Assembly: GCA_903889905.1 (NCBI GenBank)
Contig: CAISZI010000058.1
Span: 6,160 to 70,159 of the forward strand
Direction of reading: 5' to 3'
DNA: 64,000 bases
From: Candidatus Wirthbacteria bacterium
GTDB lineage: Bacteria; Patescibacteriota; CG2-30-54-11
Below, piece after piece: positions 17,937-43,082 of the stretch. The notes below the pieces were generated by a model that ran no database searches, was not told the origin of the DNA, and saw only the letters and a list, made by a program, of their open reading frames with translations. The stretch's first letter is position 1. Every line of letters starts with the position of its first letter. The position numbers and the translations under genes are program-made.

Positions 17937-17973
17937 GTCCCAGCTTGGATCTATTCATTACCCACTACCTGTC

Positions 17974-18984
17974 ATGCCAGTCACTGCTTCAATCCTGATT
18001 CCAACGTTCAACCACGGCCCCACGCTGCGGTTTGCCTTGCAAAGTATCCTGGCGCAGACGGTACAGGATTTTGAAATTTTCGTGGTTGGTGATGGCGTGC
18101 CCGACGAACTCAAACCAGAAGTTCAGCGCCTTTGCCAAACAGACCCGCGCATTCAATTCTGTGACTACCCCAAAAGTTCGCACCGCGGCGAAATCTACCG
18201 CGACCAGATCATCCGTGAGCGTGCCTCCGGCACTCAAATTTTTTACCTTTCCGATGATGATCTCTGGCTCCCCCATCACCTGGAAGTCCTTGGCAAGGCG
18301 CTTTTGAACCATGATTTTGTCCATAGTTTGCACGTCAATGTGTTTCCAGGCGACTACCTCTCGACGCAAGTGACGGATCTCGCACTGCCTTCGCATCGAA
18401 CATGGCTGCTGAACAAACCGGATTTTGGTTTCGACACGACATTTGGGGCTCATACACGTTCATTTTACCTCGCGCTGGCCCATGGCTGGCGCCCGACGCC
18501 CGCAGGAGTCAACACCGACGTCTACATGTGGCGTCAATTTGTTGCAGCCCCCCGCTGCCGTCTTACCAGTATCCAAAAGCCGACCGGGTTTCACTTTGCC
18601 AGTCCCCTGCGCACAAACTGGACTCTCCAGCAACGCGTTGACGAACTGGCGCGCTGGAACCAAATGTTGGCAAGTCCGACCACTGTCAGCAACCTGATCG
18701 ACAGCATTTTCAACCAAACCATCACCGCCGCCGCCAAAGTTCAGGTGGACAACCAAAAAGAAATAAGCCAGTTAACATCACAATTGCAAAACACTTCAAC
18801 CGCTGCAACCCTGTTACAAACAGAACTAACTGCGATTCAACATGGCTTGCAACTAACCAAGCAGTCCCTGTCCCAGCTCCAAAACGAATCCCAATCGCTG
18901 CGCCAGCGTCTGGCAGCGATTGAATCTTCCCTCACCTGGCGACTCGGCTCCCGCCTCGCCCGCCTCTTCAAACCCTTCCACTGA
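17974..18984 (+). CDS. Family 2 glycosyltransferase with C-terminal coiled-coil
   Basis: SILIPTFNHGPTLRFALQSILAQT...FEIFVVGDG and a DDD motif typical of GT2. Start trimmed to MPVTAS. The C-terminal 80 aa is a heptad-like Q/L/S-rich coiled coil. Confidence 0.7.
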   Translation: MPVTASILIPTFNHGPTLRFALQSILAQTVQDFEIFVVGDGVPDELKPEVQRLCQTDPRIQFCDYPKSSHRGEIYRDQIIRERASGTQIFYLSDDDLWLPHHLEVLGKALLNHDFVHSLHVNVFPGDYLSTQVTDLALPSHRTWLLNKPDFGFDTTFGAHTRSFYLALAHGWRPTPAGVNTDVYMWRQFVAAPRCRLTSIQKPTGFHFASPLRTNWTLQQRVDELARWNQMLASPTTVSNLIDSIFNQTITAAAKVQVDNQKEISQLTSQLQNTSTAATLLQTELTAIQHGLQLTKQSLSQLQNESQSLRQRLAAIESSLTWRLGSRLARLFKPFH

Positions 18985-27792: not shown

Positions 27793-28758
27793 ATGCCCAT
27801 CAACATTCTTTTCTGTGGTTCCGGCGAATTCTGCATCAAACCTTTCATGGCTTTGCGTGCCATGTGTTCGCAGTCCGAAAGCTGCCACATTGCCGCCATC
27901 CTCAGCCAGGCAGCTAAACCCGCCGGCCGTGGCCAACAACTGCTGGAACCTCCTCTGTTGCAACATTTTCAAACCTCGGGCAATCCGGAAAACATACGCA
28001 TCTTCCAACCCGCCAAGCTTAGCCAGGGGGCAAATGAAATCATGACAGCGATCAATCCTGATTTGATCGTGGTGGTGGATTATGGTGAATTTATTCCGGA
28101 CCTGATGTTGCAACAACCTCGTTTTGGCGCCATCAATATTCATCCTTCGCTGCTGCCACGCTGGCGTGGCGCCATCCCTATTCAGGCAACCATTTTGGCT
28201 GGCGACAGCATGACCGGCGTCACCATTCAACAAATGGCCGCCAAAATGGATGCCGGGCCGATCTTGCGTCAGCAATCCCTGGAGATATCCCCCACGGCAA
28301 CAGCCTTTAGGTTGAGTGCGGAACTCTCCACCCTGGCGGCCACCATGTTGCCCGACACGATTAACGCCATGCTGGCTGGCGCAACCGATCCCCAGACGCA
28401 AAACGAAACCTTGGCTACCTATTGCTACCAGGACGACCTGACCAAGGACAAAGCCCACATCAACTGGGACGCACCCACCCTACAAATCCTCAACCAGATT
28501 CGCGCTTATATCCCCTACCCCATTGCCTGGAGTCTATTTCGCGGCAGTCGTTTGCTCATCCACCAGGCCTCAGCCTCAACTCAAGCAAGCGGTCCTGAGC
28601 TGCCTGGCGAACTTGTCCACGCGAACAACCAAGTCTTCGTGCGCGCCCAGGATGGCTGGCTGCAACTGCAAATCGTGCAAATGGCCGGCAAAAAACAAAT
28701 AAGCGGTCAACAATTTGTTGCCGGTTACCAGCTGCAAGCCAAAGAATTTTTGAGTTAA
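27793..28758 (+). CDS. fmt: Methionyl-tRNA formyltransferase
   Basis: N-terminal formyltransferase fold with IVVVDYGEFIP, NIHPSLLPRWRGAIPIQ (SLLP/HxSLLPxxRG motif), and C-terminal Fmt domain. Classic def-fmt pairing. Confidence 0.85.
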   Translation: MPINILFCGSGEFCIKPFMALRAMCSQSESCHIAAILSQAAKPAGRGQQLLEPPLLQHFQTSGNPENIRIFQPAKLSQGANEIMTAINPDLIVVVDYGEFIPDLMLQQPRFGAINIHPSLLPRWRGAIPIQATILAGDSMTGVTIQQMAAKMDAGPILRQQSLEISPTATAFRLSAELSTLAATMLPDTINAMLAGATDPQTQNETLATYCYQDDLTKDKAHINWDAPTLQILNQIRAYIPYPIAWSLFRGSRLLIHQASASTQASGPELPGELVHANNQVFVRAQDGWLQLQIVQMAGKKQISGQQFVAGYQLQAKEFLS

Positions 28759-29747
28759 CGGTGCAGCATCCTGCGGACAATCACTTCCAGGCGATAGCGA
28801 TGCACCAGAAAACGCAGTCCCAAAAACACCACAAAAAAGATAACAGTTAGAGCGCTCAGCAAGCGCCACGGGAATACCCAAAAAGTATCTTCCGCCACCA
28901 AAGCCGTTTGCCTGGCGCCATACCACATCGTCAGCTTGGCATGGTACATACCAAAAGCCAAAGGTTGACTCATGGGGATTTTAAATCCTGCAACATTGAC
29001 CAGATTGGTACGGCTGCCTAAACCCAGCACAAATTTACGGACACTTTTGGGCAGGACATACCCTTCACCGCTGATCGGTACAGATTGCACCAATGTACCG
29101 AATTCATTAAAAATTTCTAGCACTCCATCAGGTGCCAAATGTGTATTACCCGTATTATTCAGTCGCAAGGTAAATTGCCAGGGTGCTGTTTCATAAATAT
29201 CCTGCTGACCATAAAACTCAGCCACTGCCATTTTCTCGTTGAGCTGGCCACTGACCGTAACCAGGAAAATGGAGGCCACCTGCAAATTGATTTGACTCCC
29301 CTGGAGCCCGGAAGCAGCGTCCCGCGGCGCATTCGCAAACATCACTGCCCCATAGTGCCCGCCCGGCGCAGCATTTGCCGGCACCCGAATTGTTACTGGA
29401 ACGCTGATAAAAACGTTGGGTTGAGCCACCTGACTGTTTTGCGAAAGTTCCATCCACCGGCTCAAGGATCCAGGATCATCGGACTTGGGCAGATAAAATT
29501 TCGGCGCACCAGCCTCATCACCCGTAGCTGTAAAATCCATGGCTTTGGCTGATACCTGAATGGGTGAGGACACATCAAAGGCAATCTTAATCACGCCTGA
29601 CCAGATTTGCCCTGGTTCAAGATGCAGCTCTGTTTTGGACGGTTCCACATCCACGCCGCGCCGATTTTCCTGCGCACAGGCAACCTGAGGAAGCCAAAGG
29701 CAAAGGCTCAACGTAACTGGCAAACCCCACTTTAGAAGACGCGGCAT
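28755..29747 (-). CDS. Surface protein with signal peptide and C-terminal TM anchor; CscA/DUF916-DUF3324-like topology (paralog 1)
   Basis: Signal peptide ending LPQVACAQE. Conserved blocks PGGHYGAVMF...IFLVTVSGQ...LNNTGNTHLAPDG shared with the next gene. C-terminal TM (ALTVIFFVVFLGL) plus Arg-rich tail. Family assignment is inference. Confidence 0.4.
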   Translation of the reverse strand: MPRLLKWGLPVTLSLCLWLPQVACAQENRRGVDVEPSKTELHLEPGQIWSGVIKIAFDVSSPIQVSAKAMDFTATGDEAGAPKFYLPKSDDPGSLSRWMELSQNSQVAQPNVFISVPVTIRVPANAAPGGHYGAVMFANAPRDAASGLQGSQINLQVASIFLVTVSGQLNEKMAVAEFYGQQDIYETAPWQFTLRLNNTGNTHLAPDGVLEIFNEFGTLVQSVPISGEGYVLPKSVRKFVLGLGSRTNLVNVAGFKIPMSQPLAFGMYHAKLTMWYGARQTALVAEDTFWVFPWRLLSALTVIFFVVFLGLRFLVHRYRLEVIVRRMLHR

Positions 29748-29768: not shown

Positions 29769-31133
29769 TTACTTGTCGTCTGATTCCCACTTCAAGCGGT
29801 CAGGGTCATCGAATGCCGTTGATTTCCGGTCACCTGGTTGAGGTTCAGACTGCGTGCCAGTCGCAGGCTCCGTTTTGTCTGATTTACCACCAAAGCCACG
29901 CCGGATGCGTTGAATACTGGATCTGAGGCGACTGCGACGTTCGGCACGTTTTTTCTTTTTCTCCAAACGTTTACGAACTTCATCGGCAACTTTGCGTTGC
30001 TCAACTTCCTGTGTTTTTTCGTATTTGCGAATCAGTCTGCGGTTATATAATTTGAGGAAAAACCGAATCAGCATGGTCAGGATCAGAATGCCCCCCACAA
30101 TACCCAAAATCAGTTTCCAGGGAATGACCCAGAAATAGGTGGAAGCCACCAATTGGCGTTCCTGCTGGTTGGCGTCGTCATAGACAACAATCGCTTTGGC
30201 GCTATAACGCCCAAGGCGAAAGATATTCCAGTTTTTCCAGTTGATTTGTAACTGCGTTTTTTTCTGACCCTTCGCATCCGTCTGGGCCACACCGTTGGCA
30301 TCCACCAAAACCATACTCGTAATAAACGAATCCATCCAGTAGGATTGGTATTTGCGGATACTGCCCGGCAGGACAACACCTGCCTGTTCATTCATGTTGA
30401 AATTGCCAACGTTTTTGTCTTGCCAGTCATAGACAAAAATTGTCCCCGAAGGGGCAAAGTGAACGTTACCGGAATTTTGCATACGGACATAAAAATCCAC
30501 TGGCAGATATTCGTAAAGCTTTTTGCCTGTATAGAATTCCAGAATATTGCCTTCTACTTTGACATCACCCGAAACCGTAACCAGAATCAAACTGCCAAGT
30601 TGCCCCTGAAATCCCAGCGTCGTCGTGCCTGTAGTCGAACTGCCCTGCACCACATAAAAAATGCCGTAGTGTCCACCGGGCTCGGCATCGGATGGAACAT
30701 TGATCACATATTCAATATTGATGGAACCATTGGGTTCAATATCGTGCGGAGTTTTGTCAAACTCCATCCATTCTGCCAAATGATAACGGTAGGAATTGTC
30801 CATGGTATCCAGAATTTTGGGGTCGCCATTTTCCTGGTCATTGGCGGTAAAATTTTTGGTCGCCGGCGCTACCCCTTTGATGCCAATCTCCCCGTCGTTG
30901 CGGACTTTGATGGATCCGCGAATCTTCTGCCCGGGACTCGCGAAGTACTCTTTTTTGTTAGGGATAATAATCAGGTCAAATGGAGACTGGGCACTCGCCA
31001 GCTGCGGGAATGCCGCCAGCACAAACCCAAAACAACATGCAGCGGAAATCAGCGACAATAAAAACAGCGCCGCTCGTGTCTGTGGCTTTCCGGAGGTGAT
31101 TTGTTCTTTCATTTTTGTCCAGTTTGAAATCAT
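29769..31133 (-). CDS. Surface protein with signal peptide and C-terminal TM anchor; CscA/DUF916-DUF3324-like topology (paralog 2)
   Basis: Blocks EPGGHYGIFYVV...LILVTVSGDV...MQNSGNVHFAPSG align with the previous gene. C-terminal TM (LILGIVGGILILTMLI) followed by a long K/R/E-rich tail. Confidence 0.4.
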   Translation of the reverse strand: MISNWTKMKEQITSGKPQTRAALFLLSLISAACCFGFVLAAFPQLASAQSPFDLIIIPNKKEYFASPGQKIRGSIKVRNDGEIGIKGVAPATKNFTANDQENGDPKILDTMDNSYRYHLAEWMEFDKTPHDIEPNGSINIEYVINVPSDAEPGGHYGIFYVVQGSSTTGTTTLGFQGQLGSLILVTVSGDVKVEGNILEFYTGKKLYEYLPVDFYVRMQNSGNVHFAPSGTIFVYDWQDKNVGNFNMNEQAGVVLPGSIRKYQSYWMDSFITSMVLVDANGVAQTDAKGQKKTQLQINWKNWNIFRLGRYSAKAIVVYDDANQQERQLVASTYFWVIPWKLILGIVGGILILTMLIRFFLKLYNRRLIRKYEKTQEVEQRKVADEVRKRLEKKKKRAERRSRLRSSIQRIRRGFGGKSDKTEPATGTQSEPQPGDRKSTAFDDPDRLKWESDDK

Positions 31134-31188: not shown

Positions 31189-31226
31189 AAAACAAAATCC
31201 CCCCGGCCATATTTCTGGCCGGGGGG
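31189..31226 (-). terminator. Rho-independent terminator downstream of the 1642-aa surface-protein gene
   Basis: 11-bp GC stem ccccccggcca/tggccgggggg, with a U-run on the minus transcript (plus-strand aaaacaaaa 31189-31197). Confidence 0.6.
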
Positions 31227-31254
31227 ACTTGTGACTGAGATCGAAACTTCAATC

Positions 31255-34200
31255 CTAATACTGGGCGCTTAACATCAGGTCGAGTGTATCCTGGTAGTTG
31301 CCAGAGGTCTGGTCAGCATTGATACGGATCATGTATTCGAGCGAGATGTTGTCACGAGCAGTAGAGACGTCATCACGAGCCAGGGTCTGGAACTGAGTGG
31401 ACAAAGGACCGGGGTCTTTGTTGTTGGGCTCGCCACCCTGGAAGGATGGAGCGACGAGGGTTGCGCCATTGACACCACCTGCGGTGTTACCGGCATTGCC
31501 CCAACGGGTACTTTGGCTGTAGGCATAGATACCGAAGCCCAAGTCAGAGGTATCTACCCAAGCGCGGAAGGGACTCGTATTATCAACAGTTTCGTCACGG
31601 ATCTGCAGGGTATAGCCATCCGCAGCGTTGGTATTGATCTTGATATTGTGGCCGCGGAAGTCGCTGACGCCTGAGAGGTCTGTCTGATAACCAGCTGGAT
31701 CAATTCTCCAGGTGGTCTGGTTGTCTTTGAAGAAGTAGGAATTGACGCCAGGGGTCACGCTGGTTGTAATGTCAGTGTTGCCAATGGTATCGGTATGGTC
31801 GGTAATCGTGAATTGGGTATCCAAACCTTCAGCGGTGGACAATACCCACAATGTCGAGTTGGAAGCGCGGTCGATATTGGCGCGAACGTTTACGTCAGTA
31901 GAGTTGATGGCACGATACAGGTTCGTCAGCAGTTTGGCAGCACGTTGATCCTGTGTGGTACCCGTGATGGAGGCGTAAACGTTGTTGGAAGCAAGCGCGG
32001 CATCAGCAGCAACACGTTTGAAGTAGTAGTTGACGCCACGGATGGTGACATAGTCGCCGGTAGCAGGAATACAAGCTTCATTGGCACCTGGGCCGCAGTT
32101 CATCTTGATGGTGATTTTGCCGTATTCGGTTTTGGCACCACCCAGGCGATAGAAAGCGTTAGGTTCGAGTGCCCCGAAGTCGACGCCGAGTGTGTCACGG
32201 TCACCTTCAACCTTGGAGAAGGCAAGACCGCCGTTGATTTCGATTGCGAGGTTGGGGTCGACACCGGCCGAAACCGTGATCTGGTCGTTATCAACGATGT
32301 AGACGGAGGTATAAGCCGTATCAAGCTGTTTGACGGTTGAACTGATATCCGAATCATTGACAACGGTAACCGTTGTTGCAGTGTAATCAGCGAGATAACC
32401 CAGGGTAAAGGCAGCGGTGGAATCAGTCCAGGTCCAGTAGAAGGTAGGACGGTCACCCGCTGCGGCAGTCGCAGCAATTTCAAATTTACCTGATGTCGGA
32501 GTGTCATAGGCCACCGCGTAGTTCGCGGCCGGGGCAGTTTTGGGGAATTTGGCCAGCTTGAGTTCAGCCGTCAATTGGGTGGCAACGTTAGCACCAGACG
32601 TTGCAGTGTTACTCACAATGCCACCAGCTGAATCACCGATCATGTCAAGCAGATAGGTACCAGCAACAATATCTGAAGTCCAGAGACCATTGGTGTACAA
32701 ATCATGCTTGTTTTCGGTAACGCCTAAGGTGCGAGCAGCTGTGGAGTTGGCGGCATCAGCAAAGTTGATGCCGGCGTCAGCAGTACCCGTTGCTTTGGCT
32801 ATTGTGAATTTGTTCGTAGTTGCATTATAAGCGACATTATATGTGTCCGCAGCTGCGGTTGGAGAAGCACTAAACATCCAGCGGGCGCCCTTGGTATGAG
32901 CGACACCTACACCCAATGCAATGTTAATGTTATTGCTCAATGGTTGAGCTGCACCCGAAATCACTGTGCCAGGATACTGCCAGGTAGTACCACCGTCAAT
33001 GGACCAGTGGAAGGTTCCAGGCGTACCAGTGCCATCAATTTCAACCAGGTATTTAATGGTGGTTGTACCGGTGTAAGTGTTCGAAGGGCCCGGTGTAGTG
33101 ATAGTAAGGCCAGCCACGCCGCCCGAACCAGTCCCTGTGAACGTTTTGGTAATAGTACCGCCGGTTGAAATAGTTTCTGTGTCATTGCAATTACTTAATG
33201 CAGTTGCAATGCCTGTTGCTGCTGCAGCACCAGCCAGCTCCGTCCCATTCACAATGCCACCACCACTATTGCTGACCAGGTCGCAGTTGGCATACGTACC
33301 GTCACCATTTAAGTCAACTGAGAGCAGGGCATTGATTTGTCCAGGTTGATCCGTAGTTGTACCTGTAACGGCATCATTGTTGGGTACAACATGGTCCGAG
33401 GTAAAGCCCAGATATGCGGCTGCCGTTGACGCTGTATCGCTGCTACCTGTGGCAATGAATGTGGCCGTGCCCCCAGCGTTGGTATCTTTGATCGTAAACA
33501 AGTTAGTGGTTGCGCTATAGGTAACGGTATAGGTATTTACACCAATGGCATTAAAAGTTGTTTGCAATGACGTAGCAACTGCCGCGCCAGTAATGAATGT
33601 ACCGGAGACAATGCCATTAGCGATAATGTTGAGACTTGTGTCGGCAGGGCCAACACCAGCCAATTTGTAACGTAAGGTATCATTGATGCCCGTCACGAAT
33701 TTGAATTGATCGTTAAAGACGAAGCGGCCAGCACCATTGGGGTTCCAGACAATACCAGAGTTACTGCCGACAGAGAAATCCCAGTAGTCACCGATCGTCC
33801 CGGTAAATGTCCAGCGGTCACCCACCTGATGAAGGGTTGTCGTTGTGTTAAAAGTAATTTTAACGCCTTCAGACAGAGGCAATTCATTCGTACTCAGAAT
33901 TGGTTGAGCCTGCTGAACCCAGGTGGTCCCACCGTCTTTGGACCAGCGGTAATTGTCGTAAGCAGTACCATTCTGTCCGCCGACGCCAGCAACACCACCG
34001 GAAAGGGATTCAATTTCAACACGGTAGTTGTTATTGGATGTACCCAAATAGGTACCAGAGGTGGTCAGGGTACCGGTGCCTGTTATTACGGGGGTTGAAG
34101 CGCTGATCGTTGGCCCAGCGTGTCCTGTCGTCGCGGCAAAAGTCACCGTGATGCCATTGGAAAGTTTCTGGGCGGCGCCCGTCATGGGCACATAATTGGC

Positions 34201-36183
34201 ATTCCAGTTGACACCAGCATCATCAGACCAGCGGATAGTATCAGTCGTACCAGCACTGTCAACTTGTACACGATAATTCATATTGGTTGCGTTGGTCGCG
34301 GTAGCACTCGTTGTGATGTCGCTCAAACCAGCACCTGTATGCACGGGAGAGGTTGGCGCTGAACGGGCAAAAGTCAGTTGTGAAGAAGAAAACGTTCCTG
34401 CAGCAATCTGGTACATGCCGGTCGTGGCAGGATTATAAATTTGTTGTTTACCGGTCTGAAGAGGAGAAGTTCCTTCATTGGTATTGCGGCCAATTTTGAC
34501 CTGCACATATTGTCCAGCGGCGATGCCAGTAGCATCCAGGTGAAAAAGGATGGAGTTGGCAGGAGTGGGATTGTGGGGATTGCAATACACGTTGACACCG
34601 TCAACACCGCTTAGGGTACGCAGAGTAAGGGTGTTGAAAGTGCCGTCTGTGCTGACAGCAAAGTCAACGTCTGTGAAAACCAAGTCGGTAGGAATCACAA
34701 ATCCGCTTGGGAATGTGATGACAACCTGACCAAAAGCGGGCACGGCCTGGGCGGTTTTGAAGCTAAGGGTATGGTCAGCAGCCACTAGCACGGCAGTTGT
34801 ACGTCCGTCTTTGGGTACGTTGTTGACCATGTCGATCGTGGGCAAGAAGTCCTGACCAGGAAAAGATGCCATGTGAACATAGGATTCTGTACCCGTTACA
34901 CCGCTGGAAACAACGGTGAACTTATTGGCACTACCCAAACCAAGTGATGTGACCGCGACATTGGCAGCGTTGTAGTCAACAGAAGCAGTTGCCGGATTGG
35001 TAGGAATATAACCTGCCCACAGGGACGAGATGTTTCTTTCGAGCATGCCATCAAGTCCGGGAGGAGTGGCGTTCCAAGCTCCGTGACCGATATAGTTACC
35101 AGCTGTAACCGTAATGGTTTCCGAACCGTTGGAGCTCTGTCCATCAAGGTCAAGGGTAAATTTATCATTGACACCCGTAATGATCGTGAACTGGGTTTCG
35201 TTGGGGCTGATGGCAGCCGTCGAGCGAACCGCGACAGTGTTAGCGGCGATGAAACCAAGCGTCGAAGTAGCCGTGCTGGTTGCGTCAGCCCAATAGATCG
35301 TGGGATTAATGGCGTTACCACCATCACCACGGATATTGAAGCGGTTGATATAGTCACCTGGTTCAGCAGAAGTGACGCCCGTTCCGTTGTTGGGCACATC
35401 TAAAGTAGAGGTAAAACCCAAATACAGGGCAGCGGTAGATAACGCGTCACCACTACCTGCAATATCAATACCGTTGACCCATAAGTTTTTGACAATCTTA
35501 AATTTCTGTGTTGCAGGGATGTAACTAACGGTATAAGTTTCACCACCGGCGTCCTTGGCAATCAAGGCCGTCTGGAGAGCAGCGGCAACATTCTGACCCG
35601 TGTAAGCAACGTGTGCCGTGAGGCCACCATCAGTGATCAGGCTTAAGGAAGCGTTCGCACCCGCTAAAGCGGCTGTATTGTAACGGAGGGTGTCATTGAC
35701 GCCCAGGGAAAACACATAGCTGTTGGTAGCAGAGTCAGCATAGGAGACCGTATAGGAATCGGACGCATGTCCGCCAATACCAGCTTGCAAAGCGGTTGCG
35801 ACTGCTTTGGCGACGTCCTGGCCCGAATAGGGCAACCCAGAGCTCAGGCCACCATTGGCGTGAGGCAAACCGCCATGCAATGCAGTGGTCAAATAGACAA
35901 TCGAATCACCACCTGTGGTGCAGTTCCCCGGAGTATGTGCACCAACGCCATCGTTGACGCAAATCTGGTCGTGCGCGTTATCGAATACGAATTTGGAACG
36001 GATCGGCGCATTACTTTCTGCATACCCGTTGGTAGCCGAACCAGTACCAGAACGTTTGATACGTGAAAGGCTGTCCTGGAATTCAGTCAGACGCCCATCG
36101 GCGCTACTGATTGACAGTGTCAGGTTGGACAATGTCATGGCGGCAATCACCAGCACCGCGAATTTTCTAAATACTTTTTTCAT
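31255..36183 (-). CDS. Giant (1642 aa) secreted surface protein with WxL-like C-terminal domain (candidate)
   Basis: Signal peptide MKKVFRKFAVLVIAAMTLSNLTLS. Highly repetitive T/G/S/N-rich beta-type sequence. No C-terminal TM. The last ~170 aa align with the C-terminus of the 36599-39646 protein (IKINTNAADGYTLQIRDET / LTISTNVGQGYMVTVEHDG; SLEYMIRINADQTSGNYQDTLDLMLSAQY / YVLYKIEISPSLLPGLYQNQITYFATATY). Confidence 0.5.
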   Translation of the reverse strand: MKKVFRKFAVLVIAAMTLSNLTLSISSADGRLTEFQDSLSRIKRSGTGSATNGYAESNAPIRSKFVFDNAHDQICVNDGVGAHTPGNCTTGGDSIVYLTTALHGGLPHANGGLSSGLPYSGQDVAKAVATALQAGIGGHASDSYTVSYADSATNSYVFSLGVNDTLRYNTAALAGANASLSLITDGGLTAHVAYTGQNVAAALQTALIAKDAGGETYTVSYIPATQKFKIVKNLWVNGIDIAGSGDALSTAALYLGFTSTLDVPNNGTGVTSAEPGDYINRFNIRGDGGNAINPTIYWADATSTATSTLGFIAANTVAVRSTAAISPNETQFTIITGVNDKFTLDLDGQSSNGSETITVTAGNYIGHGAWNATPPGLDGMLERNISSLWAGYIPTNPATASVDYNAANVAVTSLGLGSANKFTVVSSGVTGTESYVHMASFPGQDFLPTIDMVNNVPKDGRTTAVLVAADHTLSFKTAQAVPAFGQVVITFPSGFVIPTDLVFTDVDFAVSTDGTFNTLTLRTLSGVDGVNVYCNPHNPTPANSILFHLDATGIAAGQYVQVKIGRNTNEGTSPLQTGKQQIYNPATTGMYQIAAGTFSSSQLTFARSAPTSPVHTGAGLSDITTSATATNATNMNYRVQVDSAGTTDTIRWSDDAGVNWNANYVPMTGAAQKLSNGITVTFAATTGHAGPTISASTPVITGTGTLTTSGTYLGTSNNNYRVEIESLSGGVAGVGGQNGTAYDNYRWSKDGGTTWVQQAQPILSTNELPLSEGVKITFNTTTTLHQVGDRWTFTGTIGDYWDFSVGSNSGIVWNPNGAGRFVFNDQFKFVTGINDTLRYKLAGVGPADTSLNIIANGIVSGTFITGAAVATSLQTTFNAIGVNTYTVTYSATTNLFTIKDTNAGGTATFIATGSSDTASTAAAYLGFTSDHVVPNNDAVTGTTTDQPGQINALLSVDLNGDGTYANCDLVSNSGGGIVNGTELAGAAAATGIATALSNCNDTETISTGGTITKTFTGTGSGGVAGLTITTPGPSNTYTGTTTIKYLVEIDGTGTPGTFHWSIDGGTTWQYPGTVISGAAQPLSNNINIALGVGVAHTKGARWMFSASPTAAADTYNVAYNATTNKFTIAKATGTADAGINFADAANSTAARTLGVTENKHDLYTNGLWTSDIVAGTYLLDMIGDSAGGIVSNTATSGANVATQLTAELKLAKFPKTAPAANYAVAYDTPTSGKFEIAATAAAGDRPTFYWTWTDSTAAFTLGYLADYTATTVTVVNDSDISSTVKQLDTAYTSVYIVDNDQITVSAGVDPNLAIEINGGLAFSKVEGDRDTLGVDFGALEPNAFYRLGGAKTEYGKITIKMNCGPGANEACIPATGDYVTIRGVNYYFKRVAADAALASNNVYASITGTTQDQRAAKLLTNLYRAINSTDVNVRANIDRASNSTLWVLSTAEGLDTQFTITDHTDTIGNTDITTSVTPGVNSYFFKDNQTTWRIDPAGYQTDLSGVSDFRGHNIKINTNAADGYTLQIRDETVDNTSPFRAWVDTSDLGFGIYAYSQSTRWGNAGNTAGGVNGATLVAPSFQGGEPNNKDPGPLSTQFQTLARDDVSTARDNISLEYMIRINADQTSGNYQDTLDLMLSAQY

Positions 36184-36402: not shown

Positions 36403-36598
36403 CGCGGCTCCTGTTTATGACTAATCATTTAATTGTATCGCCCTTCATCTTCTCCGTCAATGCCTATATGGAGGATTTGTGGAGAGCTGGATACACATGG
36501 GTATTCGTTTAATTATACCAAAAAAAGCCCCCTTGTGAAGAGGGAGCTTGAATTATGGTTACTTTCAACCTTTTATGACCTTTGCCCTTGTGACTTAT

Positions 36599-39500
36599 TT
36601 AATACGTTGCAGTCGCAAAATAAGTAATTTGATTTTGATAAAGCCCGGGCAAAAGCGATGGACTTATTTCAATTTTGTACAGCACGTAGGCTTTGTCTTC
36701 AAAAACTGCTGTGCCACTATACATAATTTCCTCAGGCAATGTGCTCAATCCGGCATATTTATTGGCAAATCCCCGGAAGCGCGCCGGGCCGTTGCCAACG
36801 TCGTGCAATGTCACAAAATCAGTGTGGTACCCGATTACCCCACCCGTTGTTGAAGCCCAATATGTCGGAGTGCTGTTGGGGGCACTAAACGGATCGATGG
36901 TATCCTGATTTTGCAGAACAGTTCTCATTGGGCCGTCATGTTCAACGGTAACCATATATCCCTGCCCCACATTGGTGCTGATCGTCAACTTGTGGGCACC
37001 AATTTTGGGAGTATGAATGCTTAATATGCCGAAATCAACGGTATCACTGTCTGTACTGATGTCGGTCGTTTCCTTTTCCAAAAGGCCAGACCCGAGATTG
37101 AGTGTTCCTGCAGGAACACCCTCGATATAAAAATTAAGCGAGGTAATGACCAGCACACTGGTGATCGGGCCCCAAGCCCCTTCATTTCCAACCTTATCGC
37201 GAACTCGTAGCTGAAGATAGTACATTCCTGCCCGCTGAAATCGCAAATCCTGAGTCCAGGTGGTCACGTTACCCAGCCAGCGCTTGGCTATAAAATCATC
37301 ACCATTTACGGAGGTACCGATACGGATATAATATCCGTCCACTCCACTGCGATCATAAACGCCAGCCCATTGCCAGGTCGGGGTGACATCAGTCGTTGCT
37401 TGTGGGCCAATGATCACCGGGCCATCAGGAGCATCGCGGTCGTCATACTGGTAACCATCAAACAGTTGATAATTGGTCGAGGCAAGCGCCGAGCTCGCAA
37501 CCTGTCCCAACGAATCGCAAATCTGATAGCTGGGAGAACTTTTGCATGGACCTGTCGTATTGATCAAGCCGCCATGAATATAGGAATCACTCGCAAGATA
37601 CCAATCTGTGCCCTGGGAGTCAGACGCGGCTCCCTGGAGAGAACCGACAAACAGGTATTCCCGGCCGGCAGAATGAATCGCTGCTACAGCTGTAACATCA
37701 TTGCTGCGCAAAGGCGGGACACTGGCAGTCGTATAATTATTAATATTGCTGTCGGCACTCTGGACATCAATATTGGACTGGGTTACATAATTCCCAACCA
37801 TCCCCAGTTTAATCACGGAAACAGCCCCGCCACCGACATTGTCATTCGTTCCAACCCACATGATTCGTCCATCACGCGTCACATTTAAATCAGCAACTTC
37901 ATTGGTTGTCCCGCTGAGCAGTTTCGGGTACGGGCTGATGCGGGCGGCATTGGATTTGGAATAAATGGCCCAGGCATTCTGCGGTGTTAAGGCAGCGCCC
38001 GTCACCATCAACTCGTCCAACCCGCCATTGAAATACTCGGCGCCGCTGTGATCGCGTCCGATATTGAGCACAGCATTGGTGCCACTGATTGATCCAGAAG
38101 TCACCAGACCTGAGTTGTGGGCGGCTTCAATGCCATTGACATACAACGTCAAGGCTGACCCCGGCGCCCAAACCAGAGCAAATTGAGTCCAGTTATTATT
38201 ATCGACCGAACTGATGGATTGGACGGTATCCCAGTTTGATCCGTCATCTGAGACACGGCCGCCCAGCTTCCCGGCAGTATCGATATAGAGCTGGTAACCA
38301 ATTCTAATGCCGTCTGTCCGGTCAATTATTTTGACCTGGCCACCGGCAGTTGATCCCTGTTTAAACCAACCAGTAATCGAAAAACAACCTGTTCCGAAAT
38401 CAAAATTGGCATTGTAATTTTGCGACAGATATTGTGAGGACGACGAAGTAAATGAAATTCCATATCCGCGGACTCCTGACGCTGACCGGTTAATACCGCT
38501 GTTCACACTTAAATTATTGCCCTTGCCACTTTTATCAAGAAAATTTCCAGCTGCTTCTTCAAATGTCCACGTCCCCCTGACACTTCCAGGCATCTCTTCG
38601 GTGATATAATCTTTGGTGAAATACTTGACTGAACCTGTATTTTCACTACCAATCGGGCCTTCATTGATCACGGCTACCCCTTTGCTGCTGCCAACGTAAA
38701 TCGTATTGCGTGCAGGACCAATGGTACTGGTATTGACGGTTGCCTTGAGCGGATAGACAGTCGCATTGACGTTTTCCTGCAAGGCCGGCAAGGAAGAAGT
38801 AGAATATTTTGCCGCCGGTGTGCCTTGGTCGCTGCTATCACCCTGAATATTGTAAAAAACATCAATTTCACCCGTTGTCTGATTACTGAAATACAGGGAT
38901 CCGTCACTGTTCAATGCCACTTTGTTGATATTGTCGCTAGATGAGGCGGAATAATAATTGTGAACCTGATCCGTTGCTTCATTGATCACACTCACACCTG
39001 TCGCAGTGGCCAGTGCAAGATAATTCAAACCGGCGATCGTCGCGATACTGACGTCATGCACGTCGTTGCTGGCAATCTGTGAGACAGCCTCCGGGGTCCA
39101 GCTTGCGTTGCGATTACGCCCTTCGATGGCGGTCTTGGAGGAAAATTTATTCACCGTGCTGTAGTAAAATGCCTTGTCCAGAACAAAATCCAAGACGGTG
39201 AGTCTTGATGTGGAAGTGACGAAAATCTTGCCATCATGCGCGACAACTCCCGTGATTGTGCTGCTGTCCAGCATATTGTTGGCCGCTTTGTTAAAACGCA
39301 TCCAGAACATATGGCTTTCGGCATTAATAATGTCCAGGCTGGCATCGGTCACGACCAAGTAGGCATAACGCGGGAAATCGGTTTCTTTGCCACGTGTACA
39401 GGGTTGGGCACACGTTTCGCCAAACCAGCTGGTCTTCTGTGCATGCAAATCCTTGCGCCAGGCTCCCTGATCGGCATCAAGATCGGCATTATAAACATAA

Positions 39501-39646
39501 GCATGGCGTACGTTATTATCCCCCAATGTATAATTCCCTTGACTGTCGGGAAGTGAGGTATCATAGGTAAAAGCCTCTGCATTTGTTAAGGGAAGCAGAG
39601 TGAATAGAAGAAAAACACAAGCAAAGTAATAAATTTTGTTACGCAC
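36599..39646 (-). CDS. Large (1015 aa) secreted protein with LamG/concanavalin-like domain and WxL-like C-terminal domain (candidate)
   Basis: Signal peptide. Central LamG-like block (FDFGTGCFSITGWFKQ...LTLYVNGIEAAHNSG...NIGRDHSGAEYFNGGLDELMV). C-terminal ~170 aa homologous to the C-terminus of the 31255-36183 protein. No TM anchor. Confidence 0.5.
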   Translation of the reverse strand: MRNKIYYFACVFLLFTLLPLTNAEAFTYDTSLPDSQGNYTLGDNNVRHAYVYNADLDADQGAWRKDLHAQKTSWFGETCAQPCTRGKETDFPRYAYLVVTDASLDIINAESHMFWMRFNKAANNMLDSSTITGVVAHDGKIFVTSTSRLTVLDFVLDKAFYYSTVNKFSSKTAIEGRNRNASWTPEAVSQIASNDVHDVSIATIAGLNYLALATATGVSVINEATDQVHNYYSASSSDNINKVALNSDGSLYFSNQTTGEIDVFYNIQGDSSDQGTPAAKYSTSSLPALQENVNATVYPLKATVNTSTIGPARNTIYVGSSKGVAVINEGPIGSENTGSVKYFTKDYITEEMPGSVRGTWTFEEAAGNFLDKSGKGNNLSVNSGINRSASGVRGYGISFTSSSSQYLSQNYNANFDFGTGCFSITGWFKQGSTAGGQVKIIDRTDGIRIGYQLYIDTAGKLGGRVSDDGSNWDTVQSISSVDNNNWTQFALVWAPGSALTLYVNGIEAAHNSGLVTSGSISGTNAVLNIGRDHSGAEYFNGGLDELMVTGAALTPQNAWAIYSKSNAARISPYPKLLSGTTNEVADLNVTRDGRIMWVGTNDNVGGGAVSVIKLGMVGNYVTQSNIDVQSADSNINNYTTASVPPLRSNDVTAVAAIHSAGREYLFVGSLQGAASDSQGTDWYLASDSYIHGGLINTTGPCKSSPSYQICDSLGQVASSALASTNYQLFDGYQYDDRDAPDGPVIIGPQATTDVTPTWQWAGVYDRSGVDGYYIRIGTSVNGDDFIAKRWLGNVTTWTQDLRFQRAGMYYLQLRVRDKVGNEGAWGPITSVLVITSLNFYIEGVPAGTLNLGSGLLEKETTDISTDSDTVDFGILSIHTPKIGAHKLTISTNVGQGYMVTVEHDGPMRTVLQNQDTIDPFSAPNSTPTYWASTTGGVIGYHTDFVTLHDVGNGPARFRGFANKYAGLSTLPEEIMYSGTAVFEDKAYVLYKIEISPSLLPGLYQNQITYFATATY

Positions 39647-40787: not shown

Positions 40788-41921
40788 TTATAAACTGGTC
40801 AAGACAACGAACTGGCTGGTAGTACTTGTATAATATTCCAGCTCGGCGCGCAGCGTCCACGCGTTCCCGTCTGACTGGTACAAATAACCTGTGCGCTTTT
40901 CCGTGTCGGCCAGATTGGGATCGTGCGGCAACCTGGTCAGATATACAGGTACCAGTGCACTGGACAGAGCAAAAACATCCGCTTCGCTGTGACTTGGCGG
41001 AAAAGCCTGGTGAACAACAAAATAATCCGCCAGCGCGCGCTGGATAGCGGCCAAATCATCCCGTCGTTGATTGTCCCTGGCCTTTTTGGCAGTATCGGCC
41101 ACAATTTCATCCAGGTTGGCGTCAACGCTCTGGCTGACCACCTGCAAGTCGGTGATGCTGCCAGGCCCGAACTCCCAGAGTACGTCCACGGGCAAGACCT
41201 TGCCCTGAAAAGTCGTCAGTCCCGCCTTAAAAATAACCTGATAGATCACCTGTGGGTCCCAGTGGTTGAGCGCCAGCACAAGCTGCACAGTGTGGCTGGA
41301 AACCGCATAATTCACCTGTTTGACCAGATTGACAGGGGAAGCACGTATCTGGACCACGAAATGCACGGCGTCGGCGGTTTGTTTGTCCAGCGCGCTGCTT
41401 AAATTCAAACTGATCTGTGGTGCGGCACCAAGCAAAGTGGCGCTTAAAGGTTGTCCGGCCGACGGCAGCGAAGACTGCAGCGTCAAGGGCATATCCGAAA
41501 TTTTGAAACTGTCCGCCAGTGGTTCGGTGCGACGATATAGCATGGCTTTGAGCTGGGCTTTTTCTCCCGCCGCCACCTGCAGCTCCGCACTCCAGGGATA
41601 GGTGTTGTCTGATTCCAGACGTACCGCATAAGTGCCCGGTTCGAGGTTGGCAAAAACAAAAGGGGTGGTATGACCAGTATCTTTGAGGTCAAATAAAATT
41701 CTGACGCCGGTTGGCTCCGACGCAACCACCAGCTCGCCCTTGCTGGAAGTTGTTGTCTTGTCAGTTTGCGTGGGCGAGAAATCCTGTGCAGTATTGGCCG
41801 TATTGGCGTTGTTTGGTGCCGGCGTCTGCTGCAGTGACCAGACAGTCAGCGCCACGCCCCCCAATAACATCACCAGGATCAAACTGCCGATAATTTTTCT
41901 CATGTCGTTGGACCAACCCAT
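40788..41921 (-). CDS. Membrane-anchored PEGA-domain protein with C-terminal pilin-like (GspG/pseudopilin-type) domain
   Basis: N-terminal TM. PEGA-like block LVVASEPTGVRILFDLKDTGHTTPFVFANLEPGTYAVRL. C-terminal ARDNQRRDDLAAIQRALADYF...FPP motif resembles the pseudopilin core (RD..R..DL..I..AL..Y). Confidence 0.5.
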   Translation of the reverse strand: MGWSNDMRKIIGSLILVMLLGGVALTVWSLQQTPAPNNANTANTAQDFSPTQTDKTTTSSKGELVVASEPTGVRILFDLKDTGHTTPFVFANLEPGTYAVRLESDNTYPWSAELQVAAGEKAQLKAMLYRRTEPLADSFKISDMPLTLQSSLPSAGQPLSATLLGAAPQISLNLSSALDKQTADAVHFVVQIRASPVNLVKQVNYAVSSHTVQLVLALNHWDPQVIYQVIFKAGLTTFQGKVLPVDVLWEFGPGSITDLQVVSQSVDANLDEIVADTAKKARDNQRRDDLAAIQRALADYFVVHQAFPPSHSEADVFALSSALVPVYLTRLPHDPNLADTEKRTGYLYQSDGNAWTLRAELEYYTSTTSQFVVLTSL

Positions 41922-41930
41922 GCTCTAAAA

Positions 41931-43082
41931 CTATTCATTGCCAATGACTTCCAGGTTCCAGCGTGGAATTTTCTGCTCACCGCCCTGCTCCAGCTGTACC
42001 AGCACCAAATCCACGCCCGGGCCCAGGAGCGGGTCATCATTCGAGAGTTCCGGTAAAACGACGCGACCGGTTTTGCCAAAATTGATGCCAGCAATGACGC
42101 GGACCATTTGCTGCCTGGTCAAATTGACCCAAAACGAATTGGCAGTCTCAAATCCGGAAATCGGGCTCGAAAGCGAATCTGAGGGAAAGACGACACCGGG
42201 TTTGTTTTCATCGAGTTTGTCGAGAATGACCAGCTCGCCGCGTAGCGTTGACAAAAAATCCCAGAATTTGCGGTGCATCCGCAGCCGTCCAAACCCTTCG
42301 GTCAAAATCACAGCCGTGGCCTTGATATTGGCGTTGCTTTCATTGCCATCAAATTCCTGACTCAAATATTCCTGGTAATCACGGGCTGCTATGCTGGACG
42401 CCACAATGCCGCGCACACCCATGGCCATGGCGCGTTTCAAGACATCATAATCAACAGGCCCGCCGCTTAGAATAATTTTGTCGCAACAGCCAGCATCGAT
42501 GTGACGCGCCTGCAGGGGATCTTCATATTCGGTCACTGTATCAATCGTGCCCATGGTCGGCAGTCCAATGCCCAGCAGTCCACGCATAATACTGGAACGC
42601 AAGGTAATGTCAATTGCCCTGTCGCCTTCGATATTGGTGACAACGCCTTCAAAGCCAGCCTCCAGGCTAAAAGCAATCGAGGTCCTCTGGATCTGAATTT
42701 CACCTGTGTGGGTATTAAAATTTGTCAAAATTCCATCGACTGGGGAGCGAAAAACGCGGCGGCCAAAACCGTGCCTTTTTTCGGCGAGCACTTCACTGGC
42801 TTTGACCGGTTCGCCGGGTTTGCGGTGCAAATGCCGATGAATAGATCGTGGTGAAGCGCCCAAAATGGAAGCCAGGTTGAAACGCTCAGACTCTCCGGGC
42901 ATATCACACTGACCAATCACCTGCGCTGCCGTGACCTTTTCGCCGCGCGCGACCAGAATCTGGCCCTTGACCGGAAGTTCACGACGCAGGGTGTATTCGA
43001 CATGATGCATGATTTTGCTACGGCTATCTCTGACCCACACGGCGTTAGACCCTCCCGTCAAAGTAAAATCCCTTGACGCCAA
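41931..43082 (-). CDS. Hypothetical protein (383 aa), translationally coupled to the upstream ASKHA ATPase gene
   Basis: Coding-like ORF with 38-bp overlap with the 43045-44679 gene. No motif recognised. Confidence 0.35.
   Translation of the reverse strand: MASRDFTLTGGSNAVWVRDSRSKIMHHVEYTLRRELPVKGQILVARGEKVTAAQVIGQCDMPGESERFNLASILGASPRSIHRHLHRKPGEPVKASEVLAEKRHGFGRRVFRSPVDGILTNFNTHTGEIQIQRTSIAFSLEAGFEGVVTNIEGDRAIDITLRSSIMRGLLGIGLPTMGTIDTVTEYEDPLQARHIDAGCCDKIILSGGPVDYDVLKRAMAMGVRGIVASSIAARDYQEYLSQEFDGNESNANIKATAVILTEGFGRLRMHRKFWDFLSTLRGELVILDKLDENKPGVVFPSDSLSSPISGFETANSFWVNLTRQQMVRVIAGINFGKTGRVVLPELSNDDPLLGPGVDLVLVQLEQGGEQKIPRWNLEVIGNE

What the first reader, a model, noticed from the sequence alone, without database searches (positions are those of the whole stretch)
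31255..31800. Shared anchor-less C-terminal domain in two giant secreted proteins
The last ~170 residues of the 1642-aa and 1015-aa proteins align despite unrelated upstream regions:
- ...IKINTNAADGYTLQIRDET... aligns with ...LTISTNVGQGYMVTVEHDG...
- ...SLEYMIRINADQTSGNYQDTLDLMLSAQY* aligns with ...YVLYKIEISPSLLPGLYQNQITYFATATY*

Both end in an aromatic residue without a hydrophobic anchor. A conserved C-terminal module on otherwise divergent surface proteins is the hallmark of a sorting or cell-wall-binding domain (WxL, SLH and CWB-type domains behave this way).
Basis: seen in the sequence. Interest (0 to 1): 0.6.

Follow-up and report, generated by a model that had tools for sequence, protein, structure and literature searches.

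The report
Pilin-type tail domain on giant adhesins
Two giant secreted proteins of a Wirthbacteria-like bacterium end in the same pilin-type domain and sit next to two membrane-anchored chaperone-like proteins, which points to strand-insertion attachment of large adhesins, as in the recently described Pam pili and the WxL clusters of Gram-positive bacteria.

Summary
The last ~135-150 residues of the 1642-aa (A) and 1015-aa (B) proteins are homologous. Their upstream regions are unrelated, and the domain occurs once per protein, at the extreme C-terminus.

It is not an SLH, CWB or recognisable WxL domain. Both tails match NCBIfam NF058581, 'CPR Pam pilus pilin C-terminal domain', significantly but below its cutoff. 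A two-sequence profile finds 312 relatives, and 144 of 149 carry the domain at the C-terminus, nearly always ending in F or Y. An AlphaFold model of B's tail (pLDDT 95) resembles donor-strand-complemented pilins such as CfaB, PapA, FimA and TasA.

The two genes downstream (C1, C2) are paralogues with a signal peptide, two beta-sandwich domains and a C-terminal membrane helix. Their family is homologous to WxLIP (DUF916/DUF3324). The C2 model best matches solved E. faecium WxLIP, then chaperone-usher chaperones. In 27 of 39 evaluable loci fetched through C1/C2 alone, a gene with this tail domain sits immediately upstream.

Best reading: a Pam-like, usher-less system in which beta-strand insertion tethers or polymerises giant adhesins. 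It is a new variant of a very recently described kind. The link between Pam chaperones and WxLIP was not found in the literature searched.

The parts
31255..36183 (-). Gene A: 1642-aa secreted giant protein. It has a signal peptide and a T/G/S/A-rich N-terminal region with three Asp-box-like modules, and ends in the shared tail domain.
   Evidence: ORF and translation. Only weak BNR hits in Pfam. The identical protein is in public collections, unnamed.
31258..31659 (-). Tail domain (CTD) of A, residues ~1509-1642, ending ...LDLMLSAQY. Relative to the family model its first hairpin is shortened: the match starts at HMM position 21.
   Evidence: NF058581: 23.2 bits, E 6e-5. Family HMM: 73.9-88.6 bits. 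Aligned to B.
36599..39646 (-). Gene B: 1015-aa secreted protein with a signal peptide, propeller-like regions, a Laminin_G_3 domain (residues 415-556), an Ig/FnIII-like domain, then the tail domain.
   Evidence: Laminin_G_3, E 1.8e-21.
36602..37051 (-). Tail domain (CTD) of B, residues 866-1015, ending ...ITYFATATY. It has a pilin-like all-beta fold.
   Evidence: NF058581: 36.1 bits, E 6e-9, full profile length. AF2 model: pLDDT 95.4, pTM 0.90. Foldseek top hits are CfaB, TasA, PapA, the PapG pilin domain, EcpA, FimA and CsuA/B.
37118..37138 (-). Candidate linker/donor beta-strand of B (LNFYIEG, residues 837-843), just upstream of the tail domain. It matches the family consensus 'L.F.v.gV' that precedes the domain in pilin-sized relatives.
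   Evidence: DSSP assigns a strand at model residues 7-13 with pLDDT >90, so in the model it is hydrogen-bonded to the domain. Family alignment. A donor role is inferred from the Pam pilus structures.
29769..31133 (-). C1: 454-aa WxLIP/PamC-D-like protein with a signal peptide, two beta-sandwich domains (PGGHYG and LVTVSG motifs), the FWVIPW motif, a membrane helix and an ~85-aa highly charged cytoplasmic tail.
   Evidence: Translation. Paralogue of C2, E 1e-37. Family-level WxLIP_PGBD hits. 53% identical to the Wirthbacteria orthologue.
28755..29747 (-). C2: 330-aa paralogue of C1 with a signal peptide, two beta-sandwich domains, a membrane helix and a short basic tail.
   Evidence: AF2 model of residues 25-297: pLDDT 80.7, pTM 0.77. 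Foldseek top hits: WxLIP 9i1y (3.5e-12) and 9i25 (5.3e-12), then the CU chaperones CfaA, CsuC, Caf1M and FimC.
31195..31230 (-). Terminator-like hairpin (15-bp stem plus T-run) 25 nt after the stop codon of A and before C1.
   Evidence: Consensus scan only; function is inferred.
36512..36549 (-). Terminator-like hairpin directly after the stop codon of B, overlapping a sigma-70-like promoter (TTCACA-16-TATAAT, 11 of 12 matches) upstream of A.
   Evidence: Consensus scan only; function is inferred.

Best explanation
The shared tail is a pilin-type, Ig-like C-terminal domain of the family that includes the C-terminal domain of Pam pilins of CPR bacteria. Proposed mechanism, with each step marked as shown or inferred:

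1. A and B are exported by Sec. Signal peptides are visible in the sequence (shown).
2. Each tail domain folds into a pilin-like beta-sandwich. This comes from a high-confidence model and fold matches.
3. That fold is completed by a beta-strand supplied in trans (inferred by analogy with the Pam pilus cryo-EM structures and the WxL-WxLIP complex).
4. The strand first comes from one of two dedicated, membrane-anchored, chaperone-fold proteins encoded immediately downstream, C1 and C2. Homology to WxLIP, structural similarity to chaperone-usher chaperones and conserved gene pairing are shown. Physical binding is inferred.
5. The giant protein then either stays tethered to the cell membrane through that partner (a one-subunit 'pilus', as proposed for WxL/WxLIP), or the strand is exchanged for the linker strand of another tail-bearing subunit, which would incorporate it into a Pam-like fibre.

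I favour direct tethering or very short chains. The locus holds two clients and two partners, and no pilin-sized subunit. The unrelated N-terminal regions (lectin-like LamG plus propeller in B; Asp-box modules in A) would be the binding parts.
For: - Both tails hit NF058581 'CPR_Pam_pilin_C' (E 6e-9 and 6e-5). B also hits PamT weakly.
- A profile of the two tails finds 312 proteins at E<=1e-3 among 1.84 billion. 144 of 149 have the domain at the very C-terminus, and 137 of those end in F or Y.
- Host proteins fall into three size classes: 150-260 aa (tail only, PamT-like), 330-420 aa (PamA/B-like) and up to 5845 aa.
- 89 of 102 relatives match NF058581 and 10 match PamT.
- The AF2 model of B 831-1015 has pLDDT 95.4. 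Its upstream strand is modelled as part of the sheet. Foldseek top hits are almost all donor-strand pilins.
- C1 and C2 are paralogues with a signal peptide and a C-terminal membrane helix.
- 49 of 73 members of the C1/C2 family hit Pfam WxLIP_PGBD. The family HMM hits annotated Firmicutes WxLIPs at 1e-12 to 5e-24.
- The C2 model best matches solved WxLIP (9i1y, and 9i25 'bound to long WxL'), then CU chaperones.
- In 27 of 39 evaluable loci retrieved through C1/C2 alone, a tail-domain gene lies directly upstream on the same strand, often alternating client-partner-client-partner.
- The same four-gene layout occurs in Ca. Wirthbacteria CG2_30_54_11.
- Descriptions of Pam pilins, the chaperones PamC/D with a membrane helix, and strand exchange: bioRxiv 10.64898/2026.03.03.709456. 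AF2-predicted strand insertion of DUF916 into WxL: PMC10599100.
Against: - The NF058581 scores (36 and 23 bits) are below the curated cutoff of 55.
- C1 and C2 themselves hit no Pfam or NCBIfam model. Their assignment rests on family-level hits and on a model built from 17 sequences (pLDDT 80.7).
- Foldseek matches of the tail domain are marginal (E 4e-4 at best, TM 0.3-0.5).
- I had no coordinates, so neither an open groove nor the position of the upstream strand was inspected.
- No pilin-sized subunit, PamT or PamR equivalent lies in the 64-kb window.
- True Pam sequences could not be fetched for direct comparison, and no Pam entry is in the PDB copy.
- 12 of 39 evaluable loci show no detectable tail-domain gene upstream.
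Confidence: 0.68

Rival explanations
1. The giant proteins are true polymerising subunits. Each donates its pre-domain linker strand to the tail domain of the next copy, which would build a Pam-like fibre made of, or decorated along its length by, 1000-1600-aa subunits. C1 and C2 would act only as transient chaperones.
For: - B keeps the conserved strand ahead of the domain (LNFYIEG), matching the family consensus. The AF2 model pairs it with the domain.
- In Pam pili this linker is the donated strand.
- Many relatives of 1000-5800 aa carry the same tail.
- Terminator-like hairpins after A and B, ahead of C1/C2, resemble the structural-subunit versus accessory expression ratio of pilus operons.
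Against: - The equivalent strand in A is poorly conserved.
- Steric packing of very large N-terminal regions in a filament was not tested.
- The 1:1 pairing of client and partner genes, and the long cytoplasmic tail of C1, suggest stable dedicated partners.
Confidence: 0.25
2. The tail is a non-covalent cell-wall (peptidoglycan) binding domain equivalent to WxL. C1 and C2 would stabilise it on the wall.
For: - C1 and C2 are WxLIP homologues, and the gene order matches WxL clusters.
- There is a colinear motif resemblance: FG..l, v.V.TN/D.RG..G[YW].[VL], G.Y..t[il]T[YW] near the C-terminus.
- hhalign aligns the C-terminal motif.
Against: - No Pfam WxL hit for the tails or for 102 relatives.
- hhalign P is only 0.04-0.18, and the HMMs do not cross-hit.
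- The solved WxL chain 9i25_A is not among the top 50 fold matches of the tail.
- Both W-x-L motifs are absent.
- Peptidoglycan binding was not tested here.
Confidence: 0.15
3. The similarity reflects a generic Ig-like or adhesin stalk domain with no special targeting role, or it is a chance or compositional match.
For: - The pairwise signal is modest: BLASTP E 2e-4, and phmmer is not significant.
- One internal window of B scored 63 against 75 for the true pair.
Against: - 0 of 2000 shuffles reached the observed score.
- The domain occurs once per protein and always at the C-terminus, in 144 of 149 relatives.
- It has a conserved terminal aromatic residue.
- It is tightly linked to one partner gene family.
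Confidence: 0.03

Closest known systems
Pam pilus system of CPR bacteria (PamA/B/E/T pilins, PamC/D chaperones; Troman et al., bioRxiv 10.64898/2026.03.03.709456; NCBIfam NF058581, NF058579)
   Same: - A C-terminal pilin-like Ig domain that matches NF058581 over its full length.
- A conserved beta-strand just ahead of the domain.
- Sec signal peptides.
- Adjacent chaperone-fold proteins that carry a C-terminal membrane helix.
- No usher.
- Relatives almost entirely in CPR/Patescibacteria MAGs.
   Different: - Scores are below the family cutoff.
- The carriers are 1015- and 1642-aa multidomain proteins, not 39-55-kDa pilins with a nine-strand N-terminal sandwich.
- No pilin-sized subunit, PamT or PamR lies in the locus.
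- The host resembles Ca. Wirthbacteria, which NCBI lists outside the Patescibacteria group, whereas the preprint reports Pam pilins as exclusive to CPR.
- The ATP-synthase neighbourhood described for pam operons is absent here.
WxL clusters of Firmicutes (small and large WxL proteins plus WxLIP = DUF916-DUF3324-TM; PMC10599100; PDB 9i1y, 9i25)
   Same: - System architecture: large secreted proteins with variable N-terminal binding domains and a shared ~150-aa C-terminal domain, encoded immediately upstream of a signal-peptide, two-Ig-domain, membrane-helix protein.
- The partner is demonstrably homologous: PF06030 hits in 49 of 73 family members, HMM cross-hits at 1e-12 to 5e-24, and top Foldseek hits to solved WxLIP.
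   Different: - The client domain is not recognisable as WxL by Pfam, HMM or hhalign, and it lacks the W-x-L motifs.
- No small LPXTG protein or sortase is in the locus.
- The host is not a Firmicute.
Chaperone-usher pili of Gram-negative bacteria (Pap, Fim, CFA/I, Csu) and their two-domain tip adhesins (FimH, PapG)
   Same: - The tail model resembles CU pilins and the PapG pilin domain.
- The partner model resembles CU chaperones.
- The concept of an adhesin built as a variable binding part plus a pilin domain.
   Different: - No usher and no outer-membrane platform.
- The chaperone-like protein is membrane-anchored.
- The candidate donor strand lies between domains, not at the N-terminus.
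- Sequence identity is 6-15%.
TasA fibres of Bacillus subtilis (PDB 8aur)
   Same: Second-best fold match of the tail domain (E 6e-4). TasA is a donor-strand-exchange fibre of a single-membrane bacterium.
   Different: No sequence similarity. I recall TasA assembling without a dedicated membrane-anchored chaperone (my own knowledge, not tested here). TM-score is only 0.32-0.38.

Membership tests
Pam pilin C-terminal domain (NCBIfam NF058581) | HMM score at or above the curated cutoff (55 bits) | tested here: not met
   B scores 36.1 bits (E 6e-9, profile positions 2-148 of 148). A scores 23.2 bits (E 6e-5). Both are significant but sub-threshold. 89 of 102 relatives also match at E<=1e-3, best 5e-13.
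Pam pilin C-terminal domain (NCBIfam NF058581) | Pilin-like (truncated Ig-like) fold resembling chaperone-usher pilins | tested here: met
   The AF2 model has pLDDT 95.4. Foldseek top hits are CfaB, TasA, PapA, the PapG pilin domain, EcpA, FimA/G/I and CsuA/B. The open groove itself could not be inspected because no coordinates were available.
Pam pilus system | Linker beta-strand ahead of the C-terminal domain that is donated to the neighbouring subunit | tested here: inconclusive
   B has a conserved, confidently modelled strand (residues 837-843) that matches the family consensus. The equivalent in A is weak. Donation in trans cannot be tested here.
Pam pilus system | Nine-strand beta-sandwich N-terminal domain of PamA/B/E-type pilins | tested here: not met
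   A and B have long, unrelated N-terminal regions: LamG and propeller-like in B, Asp-box-like modules in A.
Pam pilus system | Operon-encoded PapD/FimC-like chaperones with a C-terminal membrane helix | tested here: met
   C1 and C2 each have a signal peptide, two beta domains and a membrane helix. Foldseek matches WxLIP and CU chaperones. Direct comparison with the PamC/D sequences was not possible.
Pam pilus system | Tip pilin PamT and RbmA-like anchor PamR in the operon | tested here: not met
   No other tail-domain ORF lies in the 64-kb window. No NCBIfam Pam hit was found in neighbouring ORFs.
Pam pilus system | Assembly into extracellular filaments by donor-strand exchange | not testable with these tools
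   This needs microscopy or biochemistry.
WxL domain (Pfam PF13731) | Pfam or profile match to the WxL domain | tested here: not met
   No Pfam hit for the tails at E<=10, and WxL is not among the 25 families listed for 102 relatives at E<=1. hhalign gives P 0.036-0.18. HMMs built here do not cross-hit.
WxL domain (Pfam PF13731) | Two Trp-x-Leu motifs | tested here: not met
   Neither motif is present in the sequence. The colinear positions read GYMV/GYTL and TYFA/DLML.
WxL cluster (Hassan et al. 2023 definition) | Adjacent WxLIP (DUF916-DUF3324-TM) gene together with at least two client genes | tested here: met
   Two clients (A, B) and two WxLIP homologues (C1, C2) lie within 11 kb on one strand. 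Homology of the partner. The clients, however, are not recognisable WxL proteins.
WxL cluster | Peptidoglycan binding of the client domain | not testable with these tools
Chaperone-usher pili | Outer-membrane usher in the operon | tested here: not met
   No usher family appeared among the Pfam or NCBIfam hits for the 37 window ORFs scanned, which include all ORFs flanking the cluster.
SLH / CWB-type cell-wall binding repeats | Pfam match to SLH or cell-wall-binding repeat families | tested here: not met
   No such hits at E<=1 for the whole proteins or at E<=10 for the tails.

The most novel reading that the evidence does not exclude
Pam pili of CPR bacteria, the WxL/WxLIP clusters of Firmicutes and the DUF916 loci seen here in Actinomycetota and Deinococcota would all be branches of one ancient, usher-less system. 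In it, a chaperone-fold protein that is usually membrane-anchored completes the C-terminal Ig-like domain of a client encoded just upstream by strand insertion. In Wirthbacteria-like and CPR lineages this system would carry giant adhesins (1000-5800 aa), which could be the missing host-binding components of Pam-type fibres.
Probability: 0.45. Interest if true: 0.75.

Novelty: new variant of a known kind. Interest (0 to 1): 0.55.

Why it matters
CPR and related ultrasmall bacteria live attached to host cells. The first Pam pilus report states that it is unknown how these filaments recognise the host.

Giant lectin- and propeller-bearing proteins with the Pam-type pilin tail, each paired with a dedicated membrane-anchored chaperone-like protein, are concrete candidates for the binding components. 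The family includes hundreds of such proteins.

The homology between the partner proteins and WxLIP also links two bodies of literature that do not cite each other: CPR Pam pili and Gram-positive WxL virulence and adhesion clusters. It suggests that strand-complementation attachment is widespread in single-membrane bacteria. That idea can be tested with the solved WxLIP-WxL complex (9i25) as a template.

Finally, this family occurs in a genome resembling Ca. Wirthbacteria, which NCBI lists outside the Patescibacteria group. The preprint describes Pam pilins as exclusive to CPR.

Tried and rejected
- **Word-indexed homologue searches.** Searches with either tail alone found nothing. Only the exhaustive HMMER scan worked.
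- **Exact look-ups.** Look-ups of B, A and Fmt in the encoding-contig index failed.
- **Fused tail + partner alignment.** I used one to get both families from the last homologue search. It returned mostly partners and B itself.
- **PDB sequence searches.** Searches with tail profiles found no Pam or WxL chain.
- **'The tail is a WxL domain'.** Tested by Pfam, HMM and hhalign and not supported. Motif-level colinearity remains only a lead.
- **ATP-synthase neighbourhood.** I looked for the context reported for pam operons in a Saccharibacteria locus (L007) and found YidC and cohesin/dockerin-like genes instead.
- **NCBIfam on partners.** It has no model that hits the partner family, even for Saccharibacteria members.
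- **The other giant ORF.** ORF 10286-16558 has no tail domain.
Full report
**Observation.** Both begin with signal-peptide-like sequences. Both end in Y with no hydrophobic segment or LPXTG.

The C-termini align by BLASTP at 27% identity over 140 columns, E 2e-4. A Smith-Waterman shuffle control gave 75 against 29-34 +/- 5, with 0 of 2000 shuffles reaching it and z = 7-9.6. One unrelated internal window of B reached 63, and phmmer did not find the pair significant. The pairwise signal alone is therefore real but modest.

The regions upstream of the tails are unrelated (best E 0.66). With a family HMM, the domain occurs once in each protein, at the very end, and in no other ORF of the window.

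**What the domain is.** Pfam gives nothing for the tails, even at E<=10. NCBIfam gives one family for both: NF058581 'CPR_Pam_pilin_C'.
- B scores 36.1 bits, E 6e-9, across the whole 148-position profile.
- A scores 23.2 bits, E 6e-5.
- Both are below the curated cutoff of 55.
- B also hits PamT weakly.

The family comes from a 2026 preprint (bioRxiv 10.64898/2026.03.03.709456). It reports cryo-EM structures of PamA/PamB filaments of Ca. Mycosynbacter amalyticus. [quoted passage not shown] The operon also encodes PapD/FimC-like chaperones (PamC/D) that, unusually, carry a C-terminal membrane helix.

**The wider family.** An exhaustive HMMER scan with a profile of the two tails found 312 proteins at E<=1e-3.
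- In 144 of 149 of the best hits the domain ends within 5 residues of the C-terminus. The last residue is F (69) or Y (68).
- Host proteins are 150-260 aa (tail only), 330-420 aa (pilin-sized), or giant, up to 5845 aa.
- 89 of 102 of the smaller relatives match NF058581, and 10 match PamT.
- Named members come from Patescibacteria MAGs.

**Fold of the tail.** An AlphaFold2 model of B residues 831-1015, built with 87 sequences, is all-beta with pLDDT 95.4 and pTM 0.90. The short strand LNFYIEG ahead of the domain is confidently modelled as a paired strand. It matches the conserved 'L.F.v.gV' strand that precedes the domain in pilin-sized relatives.

Foldseek against the PDB returned mostly donor-strand-complemented subunits: CfaB, TasA fibre, PapA, CS20, the PapG pilin domain with PapD, EcpA, FimA/G/I and CsuA/B. 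GH123-type glycosidases were interspersed among them. E-values were marginal (4e-4 and weaker) and TM-scores were 0.3-0.5.

**Surroundings.** Directly downstream on the same strand lie C1 (29769-31133, 454 aa) and C2 (28755-29747, 330 aa). They are 30% identical (E 1e-37). Each has a signal peptide, two beta-rich domains (PGGHYG and LVTVSG motifs), an FWV[IF]PW motif and a C-terminal membrane helix with a basic tail. C1 adds about 85 highly charged cytoplasmic residues. Neither hits any Pfam or NCBIfam model directly.

A genome scan using only C1/C2 returned 43 loci, nearly all CPR MAGs. The closest, at 50% identity, is Ca. Wirthbacteria CG2_30_54_11.
- My tail HMM finds a tail-bearing gene in 30 of the 43 loci. 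In 27 of the 39 evaluable loci it lies on the same strand as, and upstream of, the C1/C2 homologue, often in alternating client-partner order. This linkage is independent of how the tail family was found.
- The Wirthbacteria contig has the same layout: a 1029-aa client, a 1195-aa client and two partners, followed by fmt, def and priA in the same order. Identities are 36-67%. The window is therefore from a Wirthbacteria-like organism.
- NCBI lists Wirthbacteria as a phylum outside the Patescibacteria group.

**What the partners are.**
- 49 of 73 family members hit Pfam PF06030 (WxLIP_PGBD, formerly DUF916; best 1e-11), and 2 hit PapD_N weakly.
- An HMM of the CPR family hits annotated 'DUF916 and DUF3324' proteins over most or all of their length. 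Scores are L. plantarum 5e-24, B. cereus 1e-17, Enterococcus 1e-12 to 2e-16, Clavibacter 4e-44 and Deinococcus 7e-34.
- An AF2 model of the C2 ectodomain (pLDDT 80.7, pTM 0.77) best matches PDB 9i1y 'WxLIP from E. faecium' (3.5e-12) and 9i25 'WxLIP bound to long WxL' (5.3e-12). Next come the chaperone-usher chaperones CfaA, CsuC, Caf1M, SafB, FimC and EcpB, with target-normalised TM of 0.5-0.57. RbmA scores lower, TM about 0.3.

In Firmicutes, WxL clusters comprise small and large WxL proteins plus WxLIP. AF2 predicts that a DUF916 strand inserts into the WxL domain (PMC10599100). I confirmed the gene order, client immediately upstream of WxLIP, on four of the five plasmid loci inspected.

**Is the tail itself a WxL domain?** I built a 12-sequence WxL alignment from those plasmids. 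The motifs look colinear: FG..l, then v.V.TN/D.RG..G[YW].[VL], then G.Y..t[il]T[YW] near the end. However, the statistics do not support homology.
- hhalign gives only P 0.036-0.18.
- The HMMs do not cross-hit.
- No relative hits Pfam WxL among the families listed.
- The solved WxL chain is not in the top 50 fold matches.

Membership is therefore not supported. A very distant relationship is neither shown nor excluded. The libraries that could have tested it structurally were unavailable.

**Mechanism.** What is shown:
- Both proteins share a Pam-family, pilin-fold C-terminal domain.
- Their conserved gene partner is a membrane-anchored protein with the WxLIP / chaperone-usher chaperone fold.

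What is inferred from the Pam structures and the WxL-WxLIP complex:
- The tail's sheet is completed by a strand given in trans, first by C1 or C2.
- After that, either the giant protein stays tethered to the membrane anchor, or the strand is exchanged for another subunit's linker strand and the protein joins a fibre.

I favour tethering or very short chains. The locus has two clients and two partners, no pilin-sized subunit lies within 64 kb, and C1 has a long cytoplasmic tail. B's conserved linker strand keeps polymerisation open as the main rival. Terminator-like hairpins sit right after B and A, and a strong promoter-like site precedes A. This fits high expression of structural genes and lower expression of partner genes, but these are consensus matches only.

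**Novelty.** The domain family and the pilus were described in 2026, so this is not categorically new. Three things are new relative to that description:
- The carriers are giant multidomain adhesin-like proteins, not pilins.
- The system occurs in a Wirthbacteria-like lineage.
- The Pam-type partners are demonstrably homologous to Firmicutes WxLIP.

The preprint does not mention that link, and I found no paper in the held library that connects WxLIP with pilus chaperones. The preprint also says it is unknown how Pam filaments bind the host. Tail-bearing giant proteins are candidates for that role.

**Limits.**
- No model coordinates were available.
- No complex prediction could be run.
- True Pam sequences could not be compared directly.
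- The NCBIfam hits are sub-threshold.
- The C2 model rests on 17 sequences.

Noticed in passing
window 7872-8785 (minus strand): Two overlapping ORFs (8252-8785 and 7872-8453) match the N-terminal and C-terminal halves of a formate/nitrite transporter. This looks like a frameshifted gene or an assembly error.
   Followed up: no
window 10286-18984 (plus strand): A third giant ORF (2090 aa, TTG start) has no Pfam or NCBIfam hit and no tail domain. It is followed by a 456-aa ORF of unknown function and a family-2-like glycosyltransferase.
   Followed up: partly
window ~32884-34266 (minus strand; protein A residues ~640-1100): Protein A contains three repeated modules of the form 'NYRV.[IV][DE]...[RH]WS.D.G..W'. 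These resemble Asp-box (BNR) motifs; Pfam BNR hits only weakly at residues 747-755.
   Followed up: no
window 29769-30030 (minus strand; C-terminal ~85 residues of C1): After its membrane helix, C1 carries a long, extremely K/R/E-rich cytoplasmic tail that C2 lacks. The tail is also present in the Wirthbacteria orthologue. Its function is unknown.
   Followed up: no
window 40788-44679 (minus strand): Three genes upstream of queA: a membrane-anchored PEGA-domain protein, a protein with a KOW-like motif, and a MutL/actin-like ATPase (PF13941). The grouping is unexplained.
   Followed up: no
L050 3866-9551 (Deinococcus plasmid NZ_CP140100.1) and L051 4098-5912 (Clavibacter plasmid NZ_CP040796.1): WxLIP-like proteins occur outside Firmicutes and CPR (HMM E 7e-34 and 4e-44). 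Each is preceded by a small secreted protein. The Clavibacter one has a WxL-like 'VTDTR...GW' motif. The Deinococcus one ends in '...LTGTF'. The Deinococcus partner lacks a membrane helix and is followed by a 1090-aa carboxypeptidase-regulatory-like protein.
   Followed up: partly
L007 4288-6406 and 11945-13243 (Saccharibacteria MAG contig CAZYMS010000001.1): Proteins with dockerin-, cohesin- and CHB_HEX_C-like domains flank a cluster of two tail-domain genes and three partner genes. The ATP-synthase neighbourhood reported for pam operons is not seen there.
   Followed up: partly
L003, L008, L019, L024, L026, L034, L041, L043 (record titles): Several loci with the client-partner pair are labelled as Gammaproteobacteria, Methylomirabilis, Actinomycetes or Bdellovibrionales MAGs. 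This is either mis-binning or mislabelling of CPR contigs, or a wider distribution than CPR.
   Followed up: no
L001 (CAYOQW010000081.1): This contig is labelled 'uncultured Candidatus Saccharibacteria'. It shares the C1-C2-fmt-def-priA order and similar identities with the window (40-54%) to those of the Wirthbacteria contig, so the label is probably wrong.
   Followed up: partly
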